From NCBI GenBank assembly GCA_027459505.1, contig DAIDIE010000021.1, positions 92,504-156,503 of the forward strand: a stretch of 64,000 nt of DNA. Reading direction: 5' to 3'. Each line of letters starts with the position of its first letter. Positions within the stretch are counted from its first letter, which is position 1. Source of the DNA: Acidobacteriota bacterium. Its GTDB lineage: Bacteria; Acidobacteriota; Terriglobia; Terriglobales; SCQP01. A program made the translations under genes and the position numbers. Positions 8,021-44,415 of this stretch are shown one piece after another. The notes under the pieces were generated by a model. It saw nothing but the letters and a program-made list of their open reading frames with translations, ran no database searches and was not told where the DNA came from.

Positions 8021-8193
8021 GCGGCACGGCCGCTTTTATTCCACTCGCTTCGGTGTCCGGCCGAAGCTCACGGATGGTGGCCGCGCTTTACTAGTCGCCA
8101 GCGGTGCGGGACCTGAACGGCAACCCCGGACCTTCGCTACGACTTCGGCCTGCGATCTCGAACTCGAAGGCAGTTCGACTCGGCCCTGGCTCG
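8021..8193 (+). repeat. Structured intergenic element, family 1, copy A (minimal core, about 173 nt)
   Basis: Starts with the hairpin GCGGC-ACG-GCCGC followed by TTTTATTCC and ends with ...CAGTTCGACTCGGCCCTGGCTCG. It aligns end to end with copies at 21327, 23693, 33739 and 44154 and lacks both optional modules. It ends 1 nt before the trmO stop codon. Confidence 0.9.
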
Positions 8194-17300: not shown

Positions 17301-17517
17301 GAGGCACGGCCTCGTCTCCTGAGCCGCCCGCTGGCATTGCTTTCCGTTGGGTCACTGGCACGTTCTCCAGTGAGAACGTGAAGCCGCCGATGCCGGGCTC
17401 CTCTTCCGCGCGAGGGGGCCGCCCTTCCCACCCCAACAAAGCAAACTGCGCTTTGTTGGGGACCCCGGGAGAATTTCGCGGCCCTCCACCTGCGATCTCC
17501 TCCCGGTGGCTCGCTCC
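17301..17517 (+). repeat. Structured intergenic element, family 2, copy 1 (about 217 nt)
   Basis: Near-identical to 40478..40665 over its shared modules. It starts with the hairpin GAGGC-ACG-GCCTC and ends ...CCTGCGATCTCCTCCCGGTGGCTCGCTCC. It contains the 9-bp helix CACGTTCTC-CAGT-GAGAACGTG and an extra hairpin CCCCAACAAAGC...GCTTTGTTGGGG that copy 2 lacks. Confidence 0.9.
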
Positions 17518-20220: not shown

Positions 20221-21246
20221 TCAGGCGCGGGGATGATGCGCTTTGTACACCTGTCGCAAGCGCTGCGACACGACCTGGGTATAGATTTGCGTGGTCGAAA
20301 TATCGGCGTGCCCCAGCATGGTCTGTAGACTGCGCAGATCGGCGCCACGCTCCAACAAATGTGTGGCAAAACTGTGTCGCAGTAGATGCGGCGTCAGATG
20401 TTGCCGTATTTGAGCCTGGCGGCCGTAGGCCCCCAAACGCTTCCAAAAGGCTTGCCGCGTCATGGCCGCTCCGCCCCGGCGGGGGAACAGAAACGGGGTG
20501 GTTTTCCCACCCAAAATGCGCCCCCGCGCGGTACGGACAAAGCTCATGATGGCGCGCAGGGCCGATTGTCCTACCGGCACCAGACGCTCTTTATCGCCCT
20601 TGCCATGGCAGCGAACCACGCCCATCTCCGGGTCCAGGTCGCTATCCCGCAGCCGCACCAGTTCGCTGACCCGCAGGCCGCTGGCGTAGAGCAGTTCCAG
20701 CATGGCACGATCGCGTTGCGCCAGAGCCCAACTCAGACTCTGGGGAGCGCAGCGTAGTTGGCACGGCGCTTGCAGCAGCCGCTCCACTTCGTCCTGCGAC
20801 AAATACTTGGGCAGAGTGCGCCAGCTACGCGGCGATTCCAGGCCTTCACTGGGATCGTCGGCCCGTAGGCCGTCCAGGCGCAGATAGCGGAACAGGTTGC
20901 GCAGGGTAACAAGATGCCGGGCGGCGCTACGCGCGCTCAGCCCCTGGCCATAGAGCCAGAGCAGGAATTCCTGCAACTCGGTCCGGCCGCACACCAACAA
21001 GTGCCTTTCGGGTACATCTCCAGCCCAGCGCTGAAAATGTGCCAAGTCGAACGCATAGGACTTGAGCGTGTTGTCGGCCAGCCCCTTCTCGACCCGCGCA
21101 TAGTGCAGAAACGCTCCAGCTTCGGGCGGCAGCACGACTCCCGCATCTTCCCCTTTTCTGCTGCGCGACAACGGAAGACGCGATTCGCCCCGCGCTCCCG
21201 TAGCGCGCGGGCCACGGCTGGGCGAACTGGTCGCTTGCTCTGGCAT
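20221..21246 (-). CDS. Tyrosine site-specific recombinase, XerC/XerD type
   Basis: 341-aa ORF. It has an N-terminal SAM-like core-binding domain (FLHYARVEKGLADNTLKSYAFDLAHFQRW), catalytic-domain motifs GLRVSELVRL and HLLRHSFATHLL, and LGHADISTTQIYTQV. Confidence 0.85.
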   Translation of the reverse strand: MPEQATSSPSRGPRATGARGESRLPLSRSRKGEDAGVVLPPEAGAFLHYARVEKGLADNTLKSYAFDLAHFQRWAGDVPERHLLVCGRTELQEFLLWLYGQGLSARSAARHLVTLRNLFRYLRLDGLRADDPSEGLESPRSWRTLPKYLSQDEVERLLQAPCQLRCAPQSLSWALAQRDRAMLELLYASGLRVSELVRLRDSDLDPEMGVVRCHGKGDKERLVPVGQSALRAIMSFVRTARGRILGGKTTPFLFPRRGGAAMTRQAFWKRLGAYGRQAQIRQHLTPHLLRHSFATHLLERGADLRSLQTMLGHADISTTQIYTQVVSQRLRQVYKAHHPRA

Positions 21247-21326: not shown

Positions 21327-21653
21327 GGCGGCACGGCCGCTTTTATTCCACCCGTTTCGGTGTCCGGCCCCACCCCAAGCCGCGCCGCGCGGCTCGGGGA
21401 CCCCGGCCGAAGCTCACAGATGGTGGCCGCGCTTTACTAGCCCGCGTTCGTCGCATAGAGGCGCTTCTACAATCCAGCGGCATGCGGCTTTTTCTGTTAA
21501 AAAAAGCCGCACTCTTCTCCGTCCCAACGCCTCGCCCGGTGACGAACCCGGGCGTCGCCAGCGGTGCGGGACCTAAACGGCAACCCCGAGCCCTTTCTAC
21601 CCCTTCGGCCTGCGATTTCGACCTCGAAAGCAGTTCGACTCGGCCCTGGCTCG
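21327..21653 (+). repeat. Structured intergenic element, family 1, copy B (core + optional hairpin 1 + optional module 2, about 327 nt)
   Basis: Same termini as copy A. It carries the inserted hairpin CCCCAAGCCGCG-CCG-CGCGGCTCGGGG and a roughly 115-nt module bounded by CCCGCGTTCGTC...GACGAACCCGGG that contains the hairpin GCGGCTTTTT-CTGTTAA-AAAAAGCCGC (21484-21510). Confidence 0.9.
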
Positions 21654-23607: not shown

Positions 23608-23692
23608 GGCGCCTGGTGGTCGCCGCGGCTGGCAATGGCGGTGGTTTCCTCACCCAGAAAAGCAGCGCTCCTGCCAGCAGGCGGACCGTAGA

Positions 23693-24019
23693 GGCGGCAC
23701 GGCCGCTCTTATTCCACCCGCTTCGGTGTCCGGCCCCCCCCAAGCCGCGCGGCGCGGCTTGGGGGGCCCCGGCCGAAGCTCACGGATGGTGGCCGCGCTT
23801 TACTAGCCCGAGTTCGTCCCATCAGGGCGCTTCTTCGATCCAGCGGGATGCGGCTTTTCCTGTTGAGAAAAGCCGCACTCTTCTCCGCCCCAACGACTCG
23901 CCTGGTGACGAACTCGGGCGTCGCCAGCGGTGCGGGACCTGAACGGCAACCCCGGACCTTGGCTACGACTTCGGCCTGCGATTTCGAACTCGAAAGCAGT
24001 TCGACTCGGTCCTGGCTCG
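23693..24019 (+). repeat. Structured intergenic element, family 1, copy C (core + both optional modules)
   Basis: Same architecture as copy B. Hairpin 1 is a perfect 14-bp stem, CCCCCCAAGCCGCG-CGG-CGCGGCTTGGGGGG (23736-23766). The module 2 stem CCCGAGTTCGTC/GACGAACTCGGG is perfect, and its inner hairpin is GCGGCTTTTC-CTGTTGA-GAAAAGCCGC (23850-23876). The copy is flanked by 57-59-nt imperfect direct repeats. Confidence 0.9.
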
Positions 24020-24085
24020 CCATGGCAGTGGCTTCCTCACCCAAAGGCAGCGCTCCTGCCCACAGGCGGACCGTAGAGATTGTAA

Positions 24086-27088: not shown

Positions 27089-27384
27089 TCCGGATCGGGT
27101 TGCCCGCTCACCTGCGCACGCTGGCACGCGTCGCCGGCGAAGTCGAACTCGATCTCACCGGCGCCGTGACAACCCGGCAACTGCTGGACGCGCTGGAGGA
27201 GGCCTACCCGGCGCTGCGCGGCACGATTCGCGACCAGGTCAGTTTTGAACGGCGGCCTTTTGTCCGCTTCTATGCCTGCGAGGAGGATCTCTCGCACGAT
27301 TCGCCGGACGCGGTGCTGCCGGAAACGGTACTGAACGGCAGTGAACCATTCTGGATCATCGGCGCCATCGCCGGTGGCGCATAA
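27085..27384 (+). CDS. MoaD/ThiS-like beta-grasp (ubiquitin-like) small protein ending in GGA
   Basis: 99-aa [49 protein letters not shown]...[15 protein letters not shown] overlap with the preceding BNR gene. Confidence 0.75.
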
Positions 27385-27394
27385 TCCAAAGATC

Positions 27395-28438
27395 ATGTGC
27401 TTTCGCCGCGTGACTCTCTCACTCTCTTTTGTCCTGGTGCTGGCGGGTATCCGCCTATGGCCGCAATGCAGTGCCCGCCAGCAGTTCGGCAAGCTCGGCA
27501 ATTTCAGGCTGCAAAGCGGCGCGGTGATTCAAAACCTCCAACTCGGCTACCGCGTCTGCGGCAAGCTTAAGGGAGACGGCGTCAACGCGGTGCTCTTCCC
27601 CGCCTGGTTCAAGGGCATCTCCAAACAACTGCTCGCCCATATTGGCCCCGGACGTTTAGTCGATGACAGCCGCTATTACGTGATCGCGATTGATCCCATC
27701 GGGGATGGCATCTCGACTTCTCCATCCAACAGCGCCACCCAGCCGCGTATGCAGTTCCCCCGCTTCACCATGGCCGATATGGTGCACGCCGAACACCGTC
27801 TCGCCGTGCGAGTTCTCCACCTGCCCCACGTGCACGCGGTCATCGGCATTTCCATGGGCGGTTTTCAGAGCTTCCAATGGGCGGTGCAGTATCCCACCTA
27901 CATGGACGAGGTCATCCCCATTGAGGGCTCGCCGCGGCTGACCTCCTACGATCTTTTCAAGCTGCGCACGCAACTGGCCATAATCCGCGAATCCAGTCTG
28001 TGGGACGGCGGCAATTACAGCGGCAATCCGGTGCTGCCCGGCCTGGAGCAGTTTGACTTTCTCACCCTGACCACTCCCGCGCGCCGCGTGGAGCGCACAC
28101 CGAGAGGGCAAACGGCCGCGCTGCTGCGCCGCGTGGATCAACCGAGCGGCACCCCGTTTGATCTCAACGACTATCTGCGCGTGCAACAGGCGATCGCGAC
28201 CACGGATGTAGCCGCGCCCTTTGGCAAGAATATGATCCGCGCCGCCGCACAGGTCAAAGCGCGCATGCTGATCATCCCCAGCCGCCAGGACCACGCCGTC
28301 TTCCCTGGCCCGGCGGAACACTTCGCAAAACTGATTCACGCCCGCATTTACATGCTGACGGGCGATTGCGGCCACCTTGCGTTCGTCTGTCAGTCCGATC
28401 AATTGAGCCGGGTGGTTGGCAGGTTTTTAGCGAAATGA
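27395..28438 (+). CDS. Secreted alpha/beta hydrolase of the homoserine O-acetyltransferase (MetX) family, paralog 1
   Basis: Trimmed to the ATG at 27395 (MCFRRVTLSLSFVLVLAGIRLW, signal-like). It has the MetX-like LQLGYRVCGKL...NAVLFPAWF and the nucleophile elbow GISMGGFQSFQWAVQYP. Confidence 0.8.
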   Translation: MCFRRVTLSLSFVLVLAGIRLWPQCSARQQFGKLGNFRLQSGAVIQNLQLGYRVCGKLKGDGVNAVLFPAWFKGISKQLLAHIGPGRLVDDSRYYVIAIDPIGDGISTSPSNSATQPRMQFPRFTMADMVHAEHRLAVRVLHLPHVHAVIGISMGGFQSFQWAVQYPTYMDEVIPIEGSPRLTSYDLFKLRTQLAIIRESSLWDGGNYSGNPVLPGLEQFDFLTLTTPARRVERTPRGQTAALLRRVDQPSGTPFDLNDYLRVQQAIATTDVAAPFGKNMIRAAAQVKARMLIIPSRQDHAVFPGPAEHFAKLIHARIYMLTGDCGHLAFVCQSDQLSRVVGRFLAK

Positions 28439-28470: not shown

Positions 28471-29496
28471 ATGTATCGACGTTGGATCCGCACCCTAGCT
28501 GTTTCGCTGCTGCCCGCATCTCTTTTCGCCGCCGGCGGCTGCACCGCACCGCAACAATTTGCGCAGCTCGGCAATTTTGCGCTGCAAAACGGCAAGACCA
28601 TTCAAAATCTGCGGCTCGGGTACCGCATCTGCGGCCAGCTCAAGCCGGACGGCTCCAACGCTATCCTCTTCCCCGCCTGGTTTACCGGGCGCAGCGAACA
28701 ATTGCTGGGGCTGGCGGGAGATCAGGCACTGGTCAGCGATAAGCGTTACGCGATCGTCTTTATTGATCCGATTGCCGACGGGGTCTCCACCTCGCCATCC
28801 AATAGCGCTTCGCAACCTCGCATGCAGTTTCCGCGCTTCACCATGGAGGACATGGTTCACGCCGAGCATCGCCTGGCGACCAGGGTGCTGCACCTGCCGC
28901 ATGTGCGCGCCGTAATGGGCATCTCCATGGGAGGCATGCAGACATTTCAGTGGATGGTCTCCTATCCGCGCTACATGTCAATGGCAATTCCCATCGTGGG
29001 TTCACCGCGGCTGACGGCTTTTGACCGGATGCTGTGGAGCACTGAAATTGGCGTGATCCGGCAGACGCCGGGCTGGAACAACGGCAACTACCAGAGCAGC
29101 CTCAACCTCAGCCTCCTGGACCAGATCCACAACATGTTCCTGCGGACACCAGCCTGGTACGCCACTCACCCGTTCACGCCCACACCACAGGCGCACAAGG
29201 TGTTCGACGCCAATGACTGGATCCGCCAGGCGCAGGCCATGCTGTCGCTCAACGTTGGCGGCCCATACGGCAATCATCTGGCGGGCGCGGCAGAGCGGGT
29301 CAAGGCGCGGCTGCTGATCGTGCCCTCCAAACAGGACCACATGGTCAACCCACTGCCCGCCGAACGTTTCGCCAACCTGACCCATGCCCGGGTTCTACTG
29401 CTCACCAGCGATTGCGGGCACCTGGCGAACGGCTGCCAGCAGCCGCTGATCCGCGCCGCCGTGGCCCGCTTCCTGGCTACGCCACCAAAGAAGTAG
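28471..29496 (+). CDS. Secreted/lipoprotein alpha/beta hydrolase of the MetX family, paralog 2 (tandem duplicate)
   Basis: 341-aa ORF collinear with paralog 1 along its length, with the motif GISMGGMQTFQWMVSYP. The N-terminus LLPASLFAAGGC resembles a lipobox. Confidence 0.8.
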   Translation: MYRRWIRTLAVSLLPASLFAAGGCTAPQQFAQLGNFALQNGKTIQNLRLGYRICGQLKPDGSNAILFPAWFTGRSEQLLGLAGDQALVSDKRYAIVFIDPIADGVSTSPSNSASQPRMQFPRFTMEDMVHAEHRLATRVLHLPHVRAVMGISMGGMQTFQWMVSYPRYMSMAIPIVGSPRLTAFDRMLWSTEIGVIRQTPGWNNGNYQSSLNLSLLDQIHNMFLRTPAWYATHPFTPTPQAHKVFDANDWIRQAQAMLSLNVGGPYGNHLAGAAERVKARLLIVPSKQDHMVNPLPAERFANLTHARVLLLTSDCGHLANGCQQPLIRAAVARFLATPPKK

Positions 29497-30062: not shown

Positions 30063-30244
30063 CAGCCAGACCCGAGTCGAACTGATTTCGAGTTCGAGAT
30101 CGCAGGCCGAAGTGAGCCGGTTGCCCTTCAGGTCCCGCACCTCTGGCGACTCGTCAAACCCGGTGAGCCGCTAGTCAAACCCGGTGAGCCGAGTGTGAAC
30201 CTCGGCCGGTGTCCAAGCGGCTGGCAAAAAGGGGGCCGTGCCGC
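30063..30244 (-). repeat. Structured intergenic element, family 1, diverged copy F (only copy in minus orientation)
   Basis: The reverse complement reads AGCGGCACGGCCCCCTTTTTGCC...GTCGCCAGAGGTGCGGGACCTGAAGGGCAACCGG...CTTCGGCCTGCGATCTCGAACTCGAAATCAGTTCGACTCGGGTCTGGCTG. It contains an internal 21-nt tandem duplication (30153-30170 and 30174-30191). Confidence 0.8.
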
Positions 30245-33539: not shown

Positions 33540-33731
33540 GATGTCCAGACAAAGAATCCGCCAGAACTGCTCACTTCTCTTCGCTTTCCCAGATGCCTGT
33601 GCAAGCAACTCAGGGTCGCCGACCTCATTGAACGCATGTTCGTGGAGGTTCGGCGCAGAACCCGGCCCGTGGTCCGCTGCTTCGATATCGACTGCGCTGA
33701 CCGGATGCTTTTCTCGATCTTGCGCCGCTAG
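33540..33731 (+). pseudogene. 3' fragment of an IS256/Mutator-family transposase
   Basis: The frame of ORF 33387..33731 ends ...PPELLTSLRFPRCLCKQLRVADLIERMFVEVRRRTRPVVRCF. This matches the conserved C-terminal IS256 pattern (..LLtFfdFP..hw..lRTtN.IErlf.E.RRRTrvv..F). No intact upstream transposase body is present. Confidence 0.6.
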
Positions 33732-33738
33732 GAGCTAA

Positions 33739-33950
33739 GCGGCACGGCCGCTTTTATTCCACCCGCTTCGGTGTCCGGCCCCACCCCACGCCCCGCGGCG
33801 CGGCGTGGGGACTCCGGCCGAAGCTCACGGATGGTGGCCGCGCTTTACTAGTCGCCAGCGGTGCGGGACCTAAAGGGCAACCCCGGATCTTCGCTACGAC
33901 TTCGGCCTGCGATTTCGAACTCGAAAGCAGTTCGACTCGGCCCTGGCTCG
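33739..33950 (+). repeat. Structured intergenic element, family 1, copy D (core + optional hairpin 1 only)
   Basis: Identical termini to copies A-C. Hairpin 1 variant is CCCCACGCC...GGCGTGGGG, and module 2 is absent (CTTTACTAG directly joined to TCGCCAGCGGTGCGGG, as in copy A). Confidence 0.9.
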
Positions 33951-34093
33951 TTACGCGCAGCCGCACTCTCTGTTTTTTTTACACAAGCTGCTAAACATCA
34001 CTTTCACGGCGCCTCATAGCCCCGCTTACAAAAAGGGTCTAGACTTGGCGTAGGTGTTGGGGTGTTCGAACGCCCAGGGCCTTAGGAGTAAGC

Positions 34094-39450: not shown

Positions 39451-39534
39451 CTTCACTATCGAGACTTCACCAGCTAGACTTCACCATCTAGACTTCACCA
39501 GCTCGACTTCACCGGGTAGGCTTCACCAGGCAAG
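39451..39534. repeat. Tandem repeat, six units of 14 nt (consensus CTTCACCAGCTAGA)
   Basis: Units start at 39451, 39465, 39479, 39493, 39507 and 39521 with an exact 14-nt period. The CTTCAC(C) core is invariant and the 3' half drifts. The array is intergenic, between convergent genes. Confidence 0.9.
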
Positions 39535-40377: not shown

Positions 40378-40477
40378 GGGATTCTCCTGAACTGAATTCC
40401 CTTTCAACGTTACGCCGGAAGTGGCACTATGTACACGTCCACTTTTGCCGGCATTGATGGTGCCACTTCCGGCAGGC

Positions 40478-40665
40478 GAGGCACGGCCTCGTCTCCTGAG
40501 CCGCCCGCTGGCATTGCTTTAGGTTGGGTCGCTGGCATGTTCTCCAGTGAGAACGTGAAGCCGCCGATGCCGGGCTCCTCTCCCACACGAGAGAGCCGCC
40601 CTTCGGAATTTCGCGGCCCTCCACCTGCGATCTCCTCCCGCAGGGAGGACTCGGTGGCTCGCTCC
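40478..40665 (+). repeat. Structured intergenic element, family 2, copy 2 (about 188 nt)
   Basis: Aligns with 17301..17517. It lacks the CCCCAACAAAGC hairpin but has a complete terminal hairpin TCCTCCC-GCA-GGGAGGA. Its last base is 2 nt before the mocR-like start codon. Confidence 0.9.
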
Positions 40666-40667
40666 TT

Positions 40668-42266
40668 ATGGCGACACGCGCAACCGCATTTCCGCTGCAC
40701 CTCCGTCTGGACCACGGCAAGCCGCTCCAGCAGCAGCTCTACTGGCGTCTCCGGGAAGCCATCCTGCAGGGCCGCCTGCGCGCCGGGCTGCGCCTGCCCT
40801 CGTCGCGCAGCCTGGCGCAAGAACTGGGAGTGGCGCGCAACACGGTGACCGCGGCCTTCGAGATGCTGGTGGCGGAAGGATACGTGCGCTGCCGCGGCGG
40901 GGCGGGAACATTTGTCTGCGCGGAACTGCCGGAAGCGCTTCTGCACGCCGCCACTCCCGCGCCGCCGCCATCCAGGCCCCAGCCGCACGACAACGTTTCT
41001 GGGAACGGCAGCTTGCCCGCGCGCGGCAACAGCCCCGCGCCCAGGCTGCGGGTCTCGTTGCGCGGCCGCACCCATTTACAGGACTGGCCGGGAGCGGATC
41101 GCGGCGGCCAGCTCGCTGTACGGCACCGCCCGGCCCAAGCTCCCGGTAAAGACACAACGCCCAGCTTGCCGCCGCTTCTGCCCGCGGGACCCGCGCTGGA
41201 ACACTTCCCCGTCGAACTGTGGGGACGGCTGCTGGCGCGCTGCTGGCGCCGCAGCCCCTTGCGGCTGCTCGCCTCCGGCGATCCCCAGGGCGATTGCGAC
41301 CTGCGTCAGGCAATTGCCGCCTACCTGGGCAGCGCGCGCGGCGTGCGCTGCGAAGCCGGACAGGTGGTGATCACTTCCGGTTCACAACAAGCCATCGACC
41401 TGGCCGCGCGGGTGCTGCTCAACGGAGGGGAACAGGCCTGGCTGGAGGACCCTGGTTACTGGGGCGCGCGCACCGCTTTGCGCGCCGCCGGGGCCGAACT
41501 GATTGCGGTTCCCGTCGATGAAGAAGGCTTGAACCTCGGCGACGCGCTGCGGCGCGGCCCCCAAGCCCGTTTGGCTCTGATTACCCCCTCGCATCAGTTT
41601 CCCCTCGGCGTCACCATGAGCCTGGCGCGCCGTTTTGAGCTGTTGCAGTGGGCAGCCTCCCACGATGGCTGGATACTGGAAGACGATTTCGACAGTGAAT
41701 TCCGCTACACCGGGCTGCCGCAAACCGCCCTGCAGGGCCTGGATACGGAAGGGCGCGTCATCTATCTGGGGACCTTCAGCAGGGTGCTATTCCCCGCCCT
41801 GCGCATTGGGTATCTGGTGCTGCCGCCCGATCTGGTGGATGCGTTTGTCGCCGCACGGGCTGCCGCCGGCTGGCAATCCGCCGTGCTGGAACAACAGGTA
41901 TTGGCCCGCTTCATCGCCGAGGGCCACTTTGGACGCCACCTGCGGCGTATGCGCCATATCTATGGGGAGCGCCGCCAGGCGCTGCTGGACGCTCTGCAGG
42001 CTCTCTCCGGCTGGCTGGAGGCGCCGCCGCCGGATTGCGGTCTGCACGCCATCGGATGGTTGCGGGCGCCGCGCGCCGCAGCCCGCCTAGTGCGCATGCA
42101 GGAGGCCGCCCGCACCTGTGGCTACGGGCTGGTTTCGCTGGCTCGTTTTTGCGGCGCGGCGCAACCGCCCCCCGCCCTCGTCTTGCCCTTCAGCGCGGAA
42201 GACGTCCGCACGATTCGCCGCCGCATTCATCTTTTGGCGCGCACCCTGCAGGGAGCGACGCCATGA
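40668..42266 (+). CDS. MocR/PdxR-type regulator (GntR winged helix + class I aminotransferase-like PLP domain)
   Basis: 532-aa ORF. The N-terminus YWRLREAILQGRLRAGLRLPSSRSLAQELGVARNTVTAAFEMLVAEGYV is a GntR HTH, and a long aminotransferase-fold C-terminus follows (ITPSHQFPLGVTMSLARR...YLGTFSRVLFPALRIGYLV). Confidence 0.88.
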   Translation: MATRATAFPLHLRLDHGKPLQQQLYWRLREAILQGRLRAGLRLPSSRSLAQELGVARNTVTAAFEMLVAEGYVRCRGGAGTFVCAELPEALLHAATPAPPPSRPQPHDNVSGNGSLPARGNSPAPRLRVSLRGRTHLQDWPGADRGGQLAVRHRPAQAPGKDTTPSLPPLLPAGPALEHFPVELWGRLLARCWRRSPLRLLASGDPQGDCDLRQAIAAYLGSARGVRCEAGQVVITSGSQQAIDLAARVLLNGGEQAWLEDPGYWGARTALRAAGAELIAVPVDEEGLNLGDALRRGPQARLALITPSHQFPLGVTMSLARRFELLQWAASHDGWILEDDFDSEFRYTGLPQTALQGLDTEGRVIYLGTFSRVLFPALRIGYLVLPPDLVDAFVAARAAAGWQSAVLEQQVLARFIAEGHFGRHLRRMRHIYGERRQALLDALQALSGWLEAPPPDCGLHAIGWLRAPRAAARLVRMQEAARTCGYGLVSLARFCGAAQPPPALVLPFSAEDVRTIRRRIHLLARTLQGATP

Positions 42267-43335: not shown

Positions 43336-43380
43336 CGCGGCACGGCCGCTCTTGTCCACACGCTCAGGGAATCCGGCCAG
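43336..43380 (+). repeat. Solo 5' stub of the family 1 element (P1 hairpin + about 30 nt) acting as the dinB 3' hairpin
   Basis: GCGGCACGGCCGC-TCTTGTCCACACGCT..TCCGGCC matches the first roughly 45 nt of family 1 (GCGGCACGGCCGC-TTTTATTCCACCCGCT..TCCGGCC). The rest of the element is absent. It begins 12 nt after the dinB stop. Confidence 0.6.
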
Positions 43381-43411
43381 CAACCGCGCGAGCCGCGAGC
43401 AGCATGCCACG

Positions 43412-43774
43412 TTAGAGTGTCAGCGGCAAGTCGAGTTCAACGCGATCATAAACGACCTTTGGTGTGATACGCCCCCGTTCGCCCCGTTCCAACCCGACTA
43501 GACCATAGCCTTCCATGGTCCGCAGCGTGCGCGAGAGGTTTGACTTCGCCCGGCCAGTGATCCTGGCCAGTTCCTCCAACGAACCTGGCGCCCTTTCTGC
43601 GATAACTCGAAGCAACTCGCGATTTCCGGCGGACAGCACCCTGGCAAACGACTCCGTTGAGGTAAACCAGACCTTCGGCTCGTCCGCGGACACGCGTCGC
43701 TTGCCAGCGGCTACCGCCATCGTGCGAGCCTTCATTTGCTCATAGCTGGCAATACCAACTTTCAGGGTGCTCAT
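43412..43774 (-). CDS. MarR/winged-helix DNA-binding protein, putative antitoxin partner of the upstream TumE-like gene
   Basis: Trimmed to the ATG at 43774 (MSTLKVGIASYEQMKARTMAVAAG...NRELLRVIAERAPGSLEELARITGRAKSNLSRTLRTMEGYGLV). There is a 4-nt gap after the upstream gene and a GAGGAG RBS. GC is lower than in the flanks by eye. Confidence 0.65.
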   Translation of the reverse strand: MSTLKVGIASYEQMKARTMAVAAGKRRVSADEPKVWFTSTESFARVLSAGNRELLRVIAERAPGSLEELARITGRAKSNLSRTLRTMEGYGLVGLERGERGRITPKVVYDRVELDLPLTL

Positions 43775-43778
43775 AAAA

Positions 43779-44117
43779 TTACTCCTCGCTCTCGCAAAAC
43801 CGAATCCAAAAGTCCGCAAGCAAAGCCGCCGCATCCCGGTATTTGTAAGGTTTGATCGTCTGGAGTCGATGACGATGATCATAAGGTTCTTCAGACTTTT
43901 GTCGCCCAATCCGATGTGCGTTATCGAAGCCTACCAACCGCTCGCCACCCGGACCATGAAGGGTCAGGGAATAATCAATTCCGTGTGGCTTCTCTGGCGT
44001 AACCGGTACCCGTGTAACTACGAAACGCACCCAGTATTCACCAGCAGCATCGACGACAAACACCTGGCCATCGAGATCAAGCAGCAGATTGAGCGTTGGA
44101 TCGCGCGGCCTAGCCAC
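43779..44117 (-). CDS. DUF6516 / TumE-like putative toxin
   Basis: 112-aa ORF with a GTG start: ...YWVRFVVTRVPVTPEKPHGIDYSLTLHGPGGERLVGFDNAH...YDHRH. The pattern is as I recall it for TumE-family proteins and needs an HMM check. Confidence 0.5.
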   Translation of the reverse strand: MARPRDPTLNLLLDLDGQVFVVDAAGEYWVRFVVTRVPVTPEKPHGIDYSLTLHGPGGERLVGFDNAHRIGRQKSEEPYDHRHRLQTIKPYKYRDAAALLADFWIRFCESEE

Positions 44118-44153
44118 CCCTCATAGTTATCACAACGACATAACGGACGCAAG

Positions 44154-44415
44154 GCGGCACGGCCGCTTTTATTCCACTGCTTCGTCGTCTGGCCCCCACC
44201 CCGGCCGAAGCTGACGGGTGGTGACCGCGCTTCACTAGCCCGAGTTCGTCACACCACGGCGCTTCAGCAATCGAGCGGCATGCGGCTTTTCCTGTTGGTA
44301 AAGGCCGCACTCCTCTCCGTCCCAACGATTCGTCTGATGACGAACTCGGGCGTCGCCAGAGGTGCGGGACCTAAACGGCAACCCCGGTACAGCAGTTCGA
44401 CTCGGCCCTGGCTCG
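44154..44415 (+). repeat. Structured intergenic element, family 1, copy E (module 2 present; penultimate hairpins deleted)
   Basis: Same P1 hairpin and 3' end (CAGTTCGACTCGGCCCTGGCTCG). The module 2 stem CCCGAGTTCGTC/GACGAACTCGGG is perfect. It lacks the segment CTTCGCTACGACTTCGGCCTGCGATTTCGAACTCGAAAG found in the other copies. Confidence 0.85.

What the first reader, a model, noticed from the sequence alone, without database searches (positions are those of the whole stretch)
17301..17517. Second subfamily (17301-17517 and 40478-40665) sharing only the terminal modules with family 1, with a compensated P1 hairpin
Two nearly identical elements have an internal sequence unrelated to family 1 but the same ends.

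- The 5' hairpin is GAGGC-ACG-GCCTC, against GCGGC-ACG-GCCGC in family 1. That is a double C:G to A:T change preserving the stem and the ACG triloop.
- The 3' block is CCTGCGATCTC-[hairpin]-ACTCGGTGGCTCG, against CCTGCGATYTC-[hairpin]-(G)ACTCGGCCCTGGCTCG in family 1.

The subfamily is internally highly structured:
- A long-range GGCAT/ATGCC pairing.
- A 9-bp helix CACGTTCTC-CAGT-GAGAACGTG (17359-17380), which becomes CAT...GTG (a U-G pair) in copy 2.
- The stem GGCTC(C)TCT/AGGGGGCC in copy 1 versus GGCTC(C)TCTC/GAGAGAGCC in copy 2, an exchange of G-U for A-U pairs.

It is modular like family 1. Copy 1 has an extra hairpin CCCCAACAAAGC...GCTTTGTTGGGG. Copy 2 has a completed terminal hairpin TCCTCCC-GCA-GGGAGGA.

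Conserved ends with swappable interiors is what one expects if a common machinery (processing, mobilisation or protein binding) recognises the termini.
Basis: seen in the sequence. Interest (0 to 1): 0.72.

Follow-up and report, generated by a model that had tools for sequence, protein, structure and literature searches.

The report
Modular intergenic repeat, second subfamily
Two copies of a 190-220-base non-coding repeat in an acidobacterial chromosome share only their end pieces with a commoner repeat family, and the 3' end piece recurs in other bacteria, so this looks like an undescribed family of small, probably mobile, elements whose ends are the functional part.

Summary
Elements at 17301-17517 and 40478-40665 are two copies of one repeat: 93% identical over 127 nt, with a 42-nt hairpin insert and a 13-nt deletion in copy 1. 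Their interior has no detectable similarity to family 1, which has six copies and one fragment in the window. Both ends match family 1 far beyond chance.

The 3' module (CCUGCGAUYUC, hairpin, ACUCGG, GGCUCG) is not local. It occurs in another Acidobacteria MAG (L074) and inside an unrelated 161-nt MITE with inverted ends and TA duplications (five metagenome contigs). The hairpin and a long-range closing helix are fully compensated between these families.

All copies are intergenic and show no fixed orientation to neighbouring genes. They have no inverted terminal repeats, target duplications, promoter, terminator or Rfam match. Eight of nine lie on one strand. About four of nine are damaged. 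The termini diverge less than the interiors. The nearest relative lacks the element at the orthologous site, and three Acidobacteriaceae loci have none.

Best reading (about 0.45): non-autonomous mobile elements whose end modules are cis sites read on the + single strand. The enzyme is unknown. A functional RNA module is the main rival. I rate it a new variant of a known kind, of moderate interest.

The parts
17301..17517 (+). Family 2 copy 1, a damaged copy with a 42-nt insert and a 13-nt deletion in the 3' module
   Evidence: model R1 22.2 bits
17301..17313 (+). P1 hairpin GAGGC-ACG-GCCTC of copy 1
17428..17469 (+). Optional 42-nt GC-rich hairpin module (CCACCCCA..GGGGACCCCGG), the same module type as in family 1 copies
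17489..17513 (+). Truncated 3' module of copy 1: CCTGCGATCTC, then the 5' arm of hairpin B, then GGTGGCTCG
40478..40665 (+). Family 2 copy 2, the complete copy
   Evidence: model R1 41.9 bits
40478..40490 (+). P1 hairpin of copy 2
40497..40505 (+). 5' strand of closing helix Y (UGAGCCGCC), pairing with 40653-40661 (GGUGGCUCG)
40624..40661 (+). 3' module: CCTGCGATCTC, hairpin B (TCCTCCC-GCA-GGGAGGA, 40633-40649), CTCGG, GGTGGCTCG
8021..8193 (+). Family 1 copy, basal form without optional modules
21328..21653 (+). Family 1 copy with the GC hairpin and the ~117-nt arm
23694..24019 (+). Family 1 copy with both optional modules, flanked by a 59-nt imperfect direct repeat
30063..30244 (-). Diverged family 1 copy, the only copy on the minus strand
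33739..33950 (+). Family 1 copy with the GC hairpin
44154..44415 (+). Family 1 copy with a deletion that removes CCTGCGAT and the 5' arm of hairpin B
43337..43390 (+). 5' fragment of family 1 (P1 plus about 40 nt)

Best explanation
Family 2 is a second lineage of a superfamily of small, non-coding, non-autonomous mobile elements in this acidobacterial genome. The elements have no inverted terminal repeats and make no target duplication.

Shared architecture:
- A terminal 5' hairpin (P1).
- A body closed by a long-range helix (helix Y) whose 3' strand is the element's own 3' end.
- A 3' module just inside that end: CCUGCGAUYUC, hairpin B, ACUCGG, GGCUCG.

Shown:
- The repeats are multicopy and intergenic.
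- The one orthologous site available in a relative lacks the element.
- Distribution across relatives is patchy.
- Termini are more conserved than interiors.
- Base pairing works on the + strand only.
- The interior is interchangeable, and optional hairpin arms come and go.

Inferred:
- The two end modules are the cis-acting sites recognised on the + single strand (ssDNA or RNA) by an enzyme supplied in trans.
- Any sequence placed between the end modules is therefore carried along.
- Family 2 arose by exchange of the interior.

The enzyme, and whether the intermediate is DNA or RNA, are unknown.
For: - Two family 2 copies, six family 1 copies and one fragment lie in 64 kb, all intergenic.
- There is no common orientation to flanking genes. 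Three of nine copies are antisense to both neighbours, yet 8 of 9 lie on the + strand (binomial p = 0.04).
- The orthologous Pyridox_ox_2/MocR intergenic region of the closest available relative (68% identical MocR) has no element.
- 69 kb from three Acidobacteriaceae relatives has none. A diverged family 1 member exists in another Acidobacteria MAG.
- The family 2 interior is unrelated to family 1, while both ends are significantly similar.
- Termini are the least diverged parts of family 1.
- About four of nine copies are damaged (17301, 44154, 43337, and the diverged 30244), as expected of decaying selfish copies.
- Conserved G-U pairs, and substitutions that keep pairing only through wobble, place the structure on the + strand.
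- Published precedent for short conserved end boxes around interchangeable cargo mobilised in trans: the ISPpu9 A/B boxes around tnp or the ssr9 sRNA gene (PMC12288879).
Against: - No autonomous partner or candidate enzyme was seen in the window.
- No precise empty site from a close relative is available, so insertion boundaries are inferred from where copy similarity ends.
- No target-site motif was found. The similarity of the two family 2 3' flanks beyond CTCC is marginal (p about 0.03).
- Copies are 80-96% identical, so there is no sign of recent bursts.
- The same 3' module, including helix Y, lies inside an unrelated MITE with inverted ends and TA duplications (family S). That element would not need it as a transposition end.
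- Conserved G-U pairs fit RNA better than DNA.
Confidence: 0.45

Rival explanations
1. The conserved unit is a functional structured RNA module made of helix Y, CCUGCGAUYUC, hairpin B and ACUCGG. It would bind a conserved protein or act as a guide-like RNA, in the way transposon-encoded omega or bridge RNAs do. Different mobile backbones carry it (the P1-type elements and the family S MITE). Family 2 would then be one more carrier, or a paralogous RNA gene.
For: - The module is conserved as identical 6-12-nt blocks in four otherwise unalignable element families from at least three lineages.
- Hairpin B and helix Y are compensated between families.
- Invariant G-U pairs occur in helix Y.
- The + strand folds better than the minus strand.
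- The module sits inside a MITE that has its own transposition ends.
- The 5' strand of helix Y covaries with the element's own 3' terminus. This could equally be RNA-to-DNA end recognition.
Against: - No sigma-70 promoter or intrinsic terminator lies at the family 2 copies.
- Orientation is unrelated to neighbouring transcription.
- There is no Rfam match, even at E <= 10.
- Several copies have lost essential parts of the module.
- The covariation comes from very few independent lineages.
- ACUCGG is paired in family 1 but not in family 2.
Confidence: 0.27
2. Family 2 is only a chimeric relic. An old family 1 copy had its interior replaced by illegitimate recombination and was then duplicated once. 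On this reading the shared ends reflect descent, not present function.
For: - Only two copies were seen, and one is damaged.
- No other family 2 copy was found in any fetched locus, in plasmids or in viral contigs.
- There are no compensatory changes within family 2.
Against: - Hairpin B of family 2 has a completely different but perfectly complementary stem in the same register, flanked by invariant blocks. Neutral decay would not produce that.
- P1 carries a compensated pair.
- The two copies differ at 10 interior positions but at none in P1 or in the retained 3' blocks.
- The source genome beyond this window could not be searched, so the copy number is unknown.
Confidence: 0.15
3. The elements are host-domesticated DNA-level repeats of the REP/BIME or ERIC kind. 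They would serve as binding sites for nucleoid or topology proteins, or as transcript-end stabilisers, and would spread by recombination rather than transposition.
For: - They are intergenic, GC-rich and hairpin-rich with a mosaic make-up, and the window density is about one per 7 kb.
- Optional hairpin modules are present.
Against: - At 170-330 nt with a non-palindromic multi-helix architecture, they are far more complex than REP.
- Pairing is strand-specific and uses G-U pairs.
- They are absent from related Acidobacteriaceae loci.
- The module is conserved across distant lineages inside different backbones.
Confidence: 0.1
4. The terminal similarity between the two families is chance resemblance in GC-rich DNA.
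For: BLAST alone gives no significant family 1 to family 2 hit.
Against: - Anchored tests give 3 of 1000 shuffles for the 5' end and 0 of 1000 for the 3' module.
- The blocks sit at the exact repeat boundaries in the same order.
- The covariance model built on the module finds only the known copies in the window, with the next hit below 12 bits.
- The module recurs in L074 and in family S.
Confidence: 0.01

Closest known systems
ISPpu9 (IS110 family) A/B-box modules of Pseudomonas putida KT2440 (PMC12288879)
   Same: Short conserved boxes at the two ends flank either the transposase gene or an unrelated small-RNA gene (ssr9). The 5' box contains an inverted repeat. The sRNA module exists as free-standing copies and is mobilised in trans. 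These points are from the paper.
   Different: - ISPpu9 inserts into specific REP targets. Here the flanks show no common target.
- No DEDD transposase copy bounded by P1 and the 3' module was seen.
- No sequence similarity between the two systems was tested.
- The 3' module here is a roughly 50-nt structured unit that also occurs in an unrelated MITE.
Non-autonomous single-strand or rolling-circle elements (IS200/IS605-derived PATEs; IS91- and Helitron-type non-autonomous copies). Features recalled from my own knowledge.
   Same: - No terminal inverted repeats and no target duplication.
- Hairpins close to the ends.
- Strand-specific structure, with an orientation bias along the chromosome.
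- Non-autonomous copies share only the termini with their partners.
   Different: - The two end hairpins here are unrelated in sequence, unlike the IS608-type left and right ends.
- There is no conserved 4-5-nt target next to either end.
- No HUH transposase was seen.
- The conserved G-U pairs are more RNA-like.
BOX elements of Streptococcus pneumoniae and ERIC/BIME mosaic repeats of enterobacteria. Recalled from my own knowledge.
   Same: - Intergenic, multicopy and non-coding.
- Predicted to fold.
- Built from modules, with conserved terminal modules and optional or variable internal ones.
- No known dedicated transposase.
   Different: - No sequence relation is known, and none was tested here beyond Rfam.
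- These elements are longer and have a closing long-range helix.
- One of their modules is conserved across distant lineages and element types.
Transposon-encoded guide RNAs (TnpB/IscB omega RNA, IS110 bridge RNA). Recalled from my own knowledge.
   Same: - A multi-helix RNA-like unit of 150-250 nt that abuts a transposon end.
- Free-standing copies occur.
- An internal segment is complementary to the element's own terminus (helix Y).
   Different: - No TnpB, IscB or IS110 gene lies nearby.
- HEARO and all other Rfam models give no match.
- No TAM-like motif is conserved in the flanks.
Classical MITEs, such as the family S element found here in metagenome contigs
   Same: Small, non-coding, intergenic and multicopy. 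Family S carries the same 3' module and helix Y.
   Different: Family 2 and family 1 have no significant terminal inverted repeats and no target duplication. Family S has 20-nt inverted ends and TA duplications.

Membership tests
Any Rfam 15 RNA family | Covariance-model score at or above the family's gathering threshold | tested here: not met
   The whole window at the gathering threshold and at E <= 10 gave only the tRNA. Small-region searches on 40460-40690 and 33720-33970 gave only hits far below threshold. Family S and L074 loci gave none.
Classical MITE | Terminal inverted repeats | tested here: not met
   Family 2's best match is 7 of 14, equalled in about 60% of shuffles. Family 1 reaches 9 of 14, p about 0.05-0.06.
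Classical MITE | Target-site duplication flanking each copy | tested here: not met
   No direct repeat of 2-10 nt abuts any of the 8 copies. Only the 23694 copy has a 59-nt imperfect flank repeat.
Classical MITE | Short, non-coding, multicopy and intergenic | tested here: met
   The indels between copies (42 nt and 13 nt) are incompatible with a conserved reading frame.
IS200/IS605-derived element (PATE) | Similar subterminal hairpins at both ends, bound by one Y1 transposase | tested here: not met
   P1 is GAGGC-ACG-GCCTC and hairpin B is TCCTCCC-GCA-GGGAGGA. In family 1 they are GCGGC-ACG-GCCGC and TCGAACT-CGAAAGC-AGTTCGA.
IS200/IS605-derived element (PATE) | Conserved tetra- or pentanucleotide target abutting one end | tested here: not met
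   The 5' flanks end GTGC, AAAG, AGAG, CTAA, CAAA, CAAG, GCTG and AGGC. The 3' flanks show only a loose TAYG-like tendency.
IS200/IS605-derived element (PATE) | Y1 transposase or TnpB encoded in the same genome | not testable with these tools
   None was found in the window's ORFs scanned by Pfam.
IS110-type end-box modules (ISPpu9-like) | The same short boxes at both ends of modules with different cargo | tested here: met
   P1 and the 3' module are shared by families 1 and 2, whose interiors are unrelated.
IS110-type end-box modules (ISPpu9-like) | Insertion into one specific target sequence | tested here: not met
   No common flank sequence exists among the copies. The family 2 3' flanks are only marginally alike (151 of 5000 shuffles).
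IS110-type end-box modules (ISPpu9-like) | A DEDD transposase gene bounded by the same boxes | not testable with these tools
   It is not in the window. Collection scans were exhausted.
Rolling-circle (IS91/Helitron-like) non-autonomous element | Subterminal hairpin 10-20 nt from the 3' end, with only the termini shared between copies | tested here: met
   Hairpin B ends 12 nt before the end of GGCTCG in copy 2 (40649 against 40661). The interior is unrelated to family 1.
Rolling-circle (IS91/Helitron-like) non-autonomous element | Fixed terminal nucleotides next to a specific target tetranucleotide, and a Y2 HUH transposase partner | tested here: inconclusive
   The 3' end GGCTCG is fixed, but no flank motif is. 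No partner enzyme is visible.
Free-standing structured ncRNA gene | Secondary structure supported by covariation | tested here: inconclusive
   For family 1 plus L074, 6 pairs change on both sides and 0 of 500 shuffles reach this. Hairpin B and helix Y are compensated across four families. All of this comes from about four lineages, and none from within family 2.
Free-standing structured ncRNA gene | Own promoter and terminator, or a constant position and orientation relative to genes | tested here: not met
   No sigma-70-like promoter or intrinsic terminator lies at either family 2 copy. Gene contexts are mixed.

The most novel reading that the evidence does not exclude
The helix Y / CCUGCGAUYUC / hairpin B / ACUCGG unit is the recognition core of a so-far undescribed mobilisation system in Acidobacteriota and other soil or sediment bacteria. 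An element-encoded RNA would mark the element's own 3' end through helix Y for an unknown enzyme, so that any cargo placed between P1 and this module is moved. The system would be analogous to bridge-RNA or omega-RNA systems but unrelated to them.
Probability: 0.15. Interest if true: 0.85.

Novelty: new variant of a known kind. Interest (0 to 1): 0.5.

Why it matters
- If the ends alone are enough for spread, these elements are a natural 'cassette' system in a poorly studied phylum. P1 and the 3' module would then give a handle for finding the responsible enzyme.
- The 3' module is conserved in otherwise unalignable elements, one of which is a MITE with its own transposition ends. This points to a structured nucleic-acid module with its own function, one that mobile elements acquire repeatedly.
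- The module is absent from Rfam.
- At about one copy per 7 kb in this window, such repeats would also matter for assembly, binning and annotation of acidobacterial genomes from metagenomes.

Tried and rejected
- **Rfam**: searched at the gathering threshold and at E <= 10 on the window, on small regions and on related loci. Nothing was found.
- **Genome-collection scan**: the 3' pattern I used was too loose. Only L074 was real.
- **Metagenome scan**: a stricter pattern gave 28 loci, mostly chance. Five hold family S. L122 and L063 scored 28-30 bits but look like chance matches in a 5' leader.
- **Viral contigs**: four patterns gave no hit.
- **Plasmid collection**: family 1, family 2 and family S gave no match.
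- **Source contig**: it is not retrievable.
- **Homologue search**: the PPIase gene next to copy 1 found only itself.
- **Acidobacteriaceae relatives**: three loci hold no module.
- **Terminal inverted repeats and target duplications**: absent.
- **Flank-based ideas**: a direct repeat between the post-P1 region and the 3' end is not significant. Similarity of the 3' flanks as a sign of target specificity is marginal. Alignment to the relative's 'empty site' is too diverged to fix the junction.
- **Promoter ideas**: a sigma-54 -24/-12 reading of P1 (GGCACG) was rejected because no -12 GC follows. The sigma-70 and terminator scans were negative.
- **XerD**: the gene next to the 21328 copy is the housekeeping equivalog, so the adjacency is judged coincidental.
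- **Family S neighbours**: they are ordinary genes, not transposases.
- **Replication direction**: GC skew is too weak to assign it.

Full report
**1. What is there**

The window is about 62% GC. Its proteins are closest to Acidobacteriaceae (Granulicella, Terriglobus, Acidipila), at about 70% identity at most. The source is therefore a poorly sampled member of the Acidobacteriota. Its own contig (160,876 bp) is listed but cannot be retrieved.

The two elements of the finding are real.
- 17301-17517 and 40478-40665 align over their whole length.
- Identity is 93% over the first 127 nt and 100% over a further 35 nt.
- Copy 1 has an extra 42 nt (17428-17469) containing a perfect 12-bp hairpin.
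- Copy 1 lacks 13 nt (CAGGGAGGACTCG) of the 3' module.

A 5' fragment lies at 43337.

**2. Are the shared ends more than chance?**

Yes.
- The family 2 interior gives local alignment scores below the mean of shuffles against three family 1 interiors.
- The first 20 nt reach the observed score in 3 of 1000 shuffles, and the 3' module in 0 of 1000.
- A covariance model of the 3' module (R1) scores family 1 copies at 64-74 bits, family 2 copy 2 at 41.9 and the truncated copy 1 at 22.2.
- With filters off, nothing else in the window exceeds 12 bits. The window therefore holds no third subfamily.

**3. The ends are conserved beyond this genome**

My first genome-collection scan used too loose a pattern and was largely wasted. 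It did bring in L074, from an Acidobacteria MAG, which holds a diverged family 1-like element. That element has P1 (GCGGC-UCG-GCCGC), GGUGCGGGACCU and the 3' module (51.5 bits).

The metagenome scan found five contigs carrying a 161-nt repeat, which I call family S.
- It has 20-nt inverted ends (GAGCCCGTCTCATAAACCCC) and TA duplications.
- It sits among ordinary genes.
- Its interior contains GUCGCCAG ... CCUGCGAUUUCG, a hairpin, ACUCGG ... CUGGCUCG. These are the same blocks as the family 1 3' domain (61-66 bits).

P1, however, was seen only in the acidobacterial elements.

**4. Structure**

Hairpin B always starts with the UC that ends CCUGCGAUYUC and always ends with the GA before CUCGG. 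Its stem differs in every family:

| Family | Hairpin B stem |
|---|---|
| Family 1 | UCGAACU/AGUUCGA |
| Family 2 | UCCUCCC/GGGAGGA |
| L074 | UCGGA/UCCGA |
| Family S | UCG(C)GCC/GGCCGA |

A long-range helix (Y) pairs the element's 3' terminus with an upstream strand:

| Family | Helix Y |
|---|---|
| Family 1 and family S | GCCAG/CUGGC |
| L074 | UUAAU/GUUAA |
| Family 2 | UGAGCCGCC/GGUGGCUCG |

On the family 1 plus L074 alignment, 96% of cells pair and 6 pairs change on both sides. None of 500 shuffles reaches either value, and sliding the partners destroys the pairing. All the double changes come from L074, so they represent few independent events.

Within family 2 the consensus fold contains P1, helix Y, the GGCAUU/GAUGCC helix and the GGCUC(C)UCU stem.
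- All five substitutions in stems keep pairing through G-U, and none is compensated on both sides.
Each has one wobble-compatible change.
- Folding energies are only mildly unusual. The z-score is -1.7 for copy 2, -4.3 for copy 1 with its perfect insert, and -0.09 for the minus strand of copy 2.

The conserved G-U pairs place the structure on the + strand.

**5. Context**

- All copies are intergenic. The flanking genes are ordinary: PPIase, a response regulator, Pyridox_ox_2, MocR, dinB, XerD and others.
- Orientation relative to neighbours is mixed, and three copies are antisense to both neighbours. Even so, 8 of 9 lie on the + strand (p = 0.04).
- No sigma-70-type promoter or intrinsic terminator is predicted at the family 2 copies.
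- There are no terminal inverted repeats and no target duplications.
- The 3' flank similarity between the two family 2 copies beyond CTCC is marginal.
- The nearest relative of the MocR gene (68% identity, L117) keeps the Pyridox_ox_2/MocR arrangement and the conserved operator-like GTGGCACTATGTAYACGTCC. Its intergenic region has no element. The region is too diverged to define the junction.
- 69 kb from three Acidobacteriaceae relatives contains no module.
- Among family 1 copies, P1 diverges 0-2.6%, the 3' module 4.5-7% and the interiors 9-16%.
- About four of nine copies are defective.

**6. Modularity**

- The 42-nt insert of family 2 copy 1 (CCACCCCA..GGGGACCCCGG) is the same kind of GC hairpin found in the loop of the 5' hairpin of three family 1 copies. 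The 44154 copy holds a remnant. It never stands alone in the window.
- Its upper stem differs in each copy but always pairs.
- Three family 1 copies also carry an arm of about 117 nt closed by 12-bp inverted ends.

The elements are therefore mosaics of self-contained arms hung on a conserved frame.

**7. Interpretation**

High density, patchy distribution, absence at the one orthologous site available, decay of many copies and lack of expression signals all fit selfish, non-autonomous mobile elements. So does the greater constraint on the ends than on the interiors.

I infer that the end modules are cis sites read on the + single strand by an enzyme supplied in trans. Family 2 would then be the same frame with a different interior. 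The ISPpu9 system gives published precedent for conserved end boxes around interchangeable cargo, including an sRNA gene mobilised in trans (PMC12288879).

Three points count against a purely 'transposition end' role:
- The module sits inside a MITE that has its own ends.
- G-U pairs are conserved.
- ACUCGG is sequence-conserved even where it is unpaired.

The main rival is therefore a functional RNA module carried by several mobile backbones. The two readings are not exclusive.

Membership of classical MITEs, of IS200/IS605 derivatives and of any Rfam family was tested and not met. For IS110-like and rolling-circle-like systems, some features are met and the decisive one, a partner enzyme, cannot be tested here.

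**8. Verdict**

- The elements belong to an undescribed, modular superfamily of repeats without inverted terminal repeats. Its 3' module is conserved across lineages.
- This is a new variant of a known kind (bacterial non-autonomous interspersed repeats), of moderate interest.
- The mechanism remains inferred.

Noticed in passing
window 23635-23693 and 24022-24078: The family 1 copy at 23694-24019 is bracketed by a 59-nt imperfect direct repeat (about 90% identical). The repeat includes a small CCTGC..GCAGG hairpin. No other copy has a flank duplication. It could be a long staggered-cut duplication or an older tandem duplication.
   Followed up: partly
window 43337-44415: A 5' fragment of family 1 (43337-43390) lies directly after dinB. 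A minus-strand two-gene cassette follows: an HVO_A0114-like HTH protein at 43412-43909 and a 112-aa ORF at 43779-44117 with no family match. A full family 1 copy follows at 44154. This may be a toxin-antitoxin-like cassette caught between element pieces.
   Followed up: partly
window 17428-17469; about 21368-21406, 23734-23772, 33779-33817; remnant about 44193-44204: An optional GC-rich hairpin module (CCMCCCCA ... GGGGACCCCGG) occurs in both families at non-homologous hairpin loops next to a YCGG. Its upper stem differs in every copy but always pairs. It never stands alone in the window. It is either a nested mini-element or an exchangeable arm.
   Followed up: partly
window about 21434-21550, 23800-23916, 44232-44348: An arm of about 117 nt closed by 12-bp inverted ends (CCCGAGTTCGTC / GACGAACTCGGG) is inserted at CTAG|TCGCCAG in three family 1 copies.
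   Followed up: no
L121, L126, L133, L138, L142 (metagenome contigs): Family S is a 161-nt MITE with 20-nt inverted ends (GAGCCCGTCTCATAAACCCC) and TA duplications, which looks IS630/Tc1-like. It sits in five different gene contexts. Its interior carries helix Y and the CCUGCGAUUUCG/ACUCGG/CUGGCUCG module. Three short patches are hypervariable between copies.
   Followed up: partly
L074 7488-7503 and 7560-7575: In the Acidobacteria MAG element, the 3' half of P1 plus its tail (GGCCGCTTTTACTTTT) is duplicated 72 nt upstream of the element.
   Followed up: no
window 39451-39528: A tandem array of a 14-nt unit (CTTCACCATCTAGA, 5.6 copies, 82% matches) lies in the intergenic region upstream of the Pyridox_ox_2 gene. 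It may be an iteron-like or regulator-binding array.
   Followed up: no
window 40425-40446 and L117 1557-1580: The sequence GTGGCACTATGTAYACGTCC is conserved between the window and the 68%-identical relative, in the divergent Pyridox_ox_2/MocR intergenic region. It is probably the MocR operator. Family 2 copy 2 lies between it and the MocR start.
   Followed up: no
window 20221-21246 (-): A XerD equivalog (TIGR02225, 334.9 bits against a cut-off of 329.6) starts 82 nt from the family 1 copy at 21328. I judged the adjacency coincidental.
   Followed up: yes
window 27341-28438 and 28471-29496: These are tandem paralogous alpha/beta-hydrolase genes (repeat families D3, D6 and D8, about 72% DNA identity).
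   Followed up: no
L122 282-331: A pattern hit with a perfect 8-bp hairpin in the register of hairpin B (TCCACGCG..CGCGTGGA) scores 30 bits with R1. It lies in the 5' leader of a minus-strand membrane-protein gene on a high-GC contig and has no upstream element. It is either a chance match or a solitary module.
   Followed up: partly
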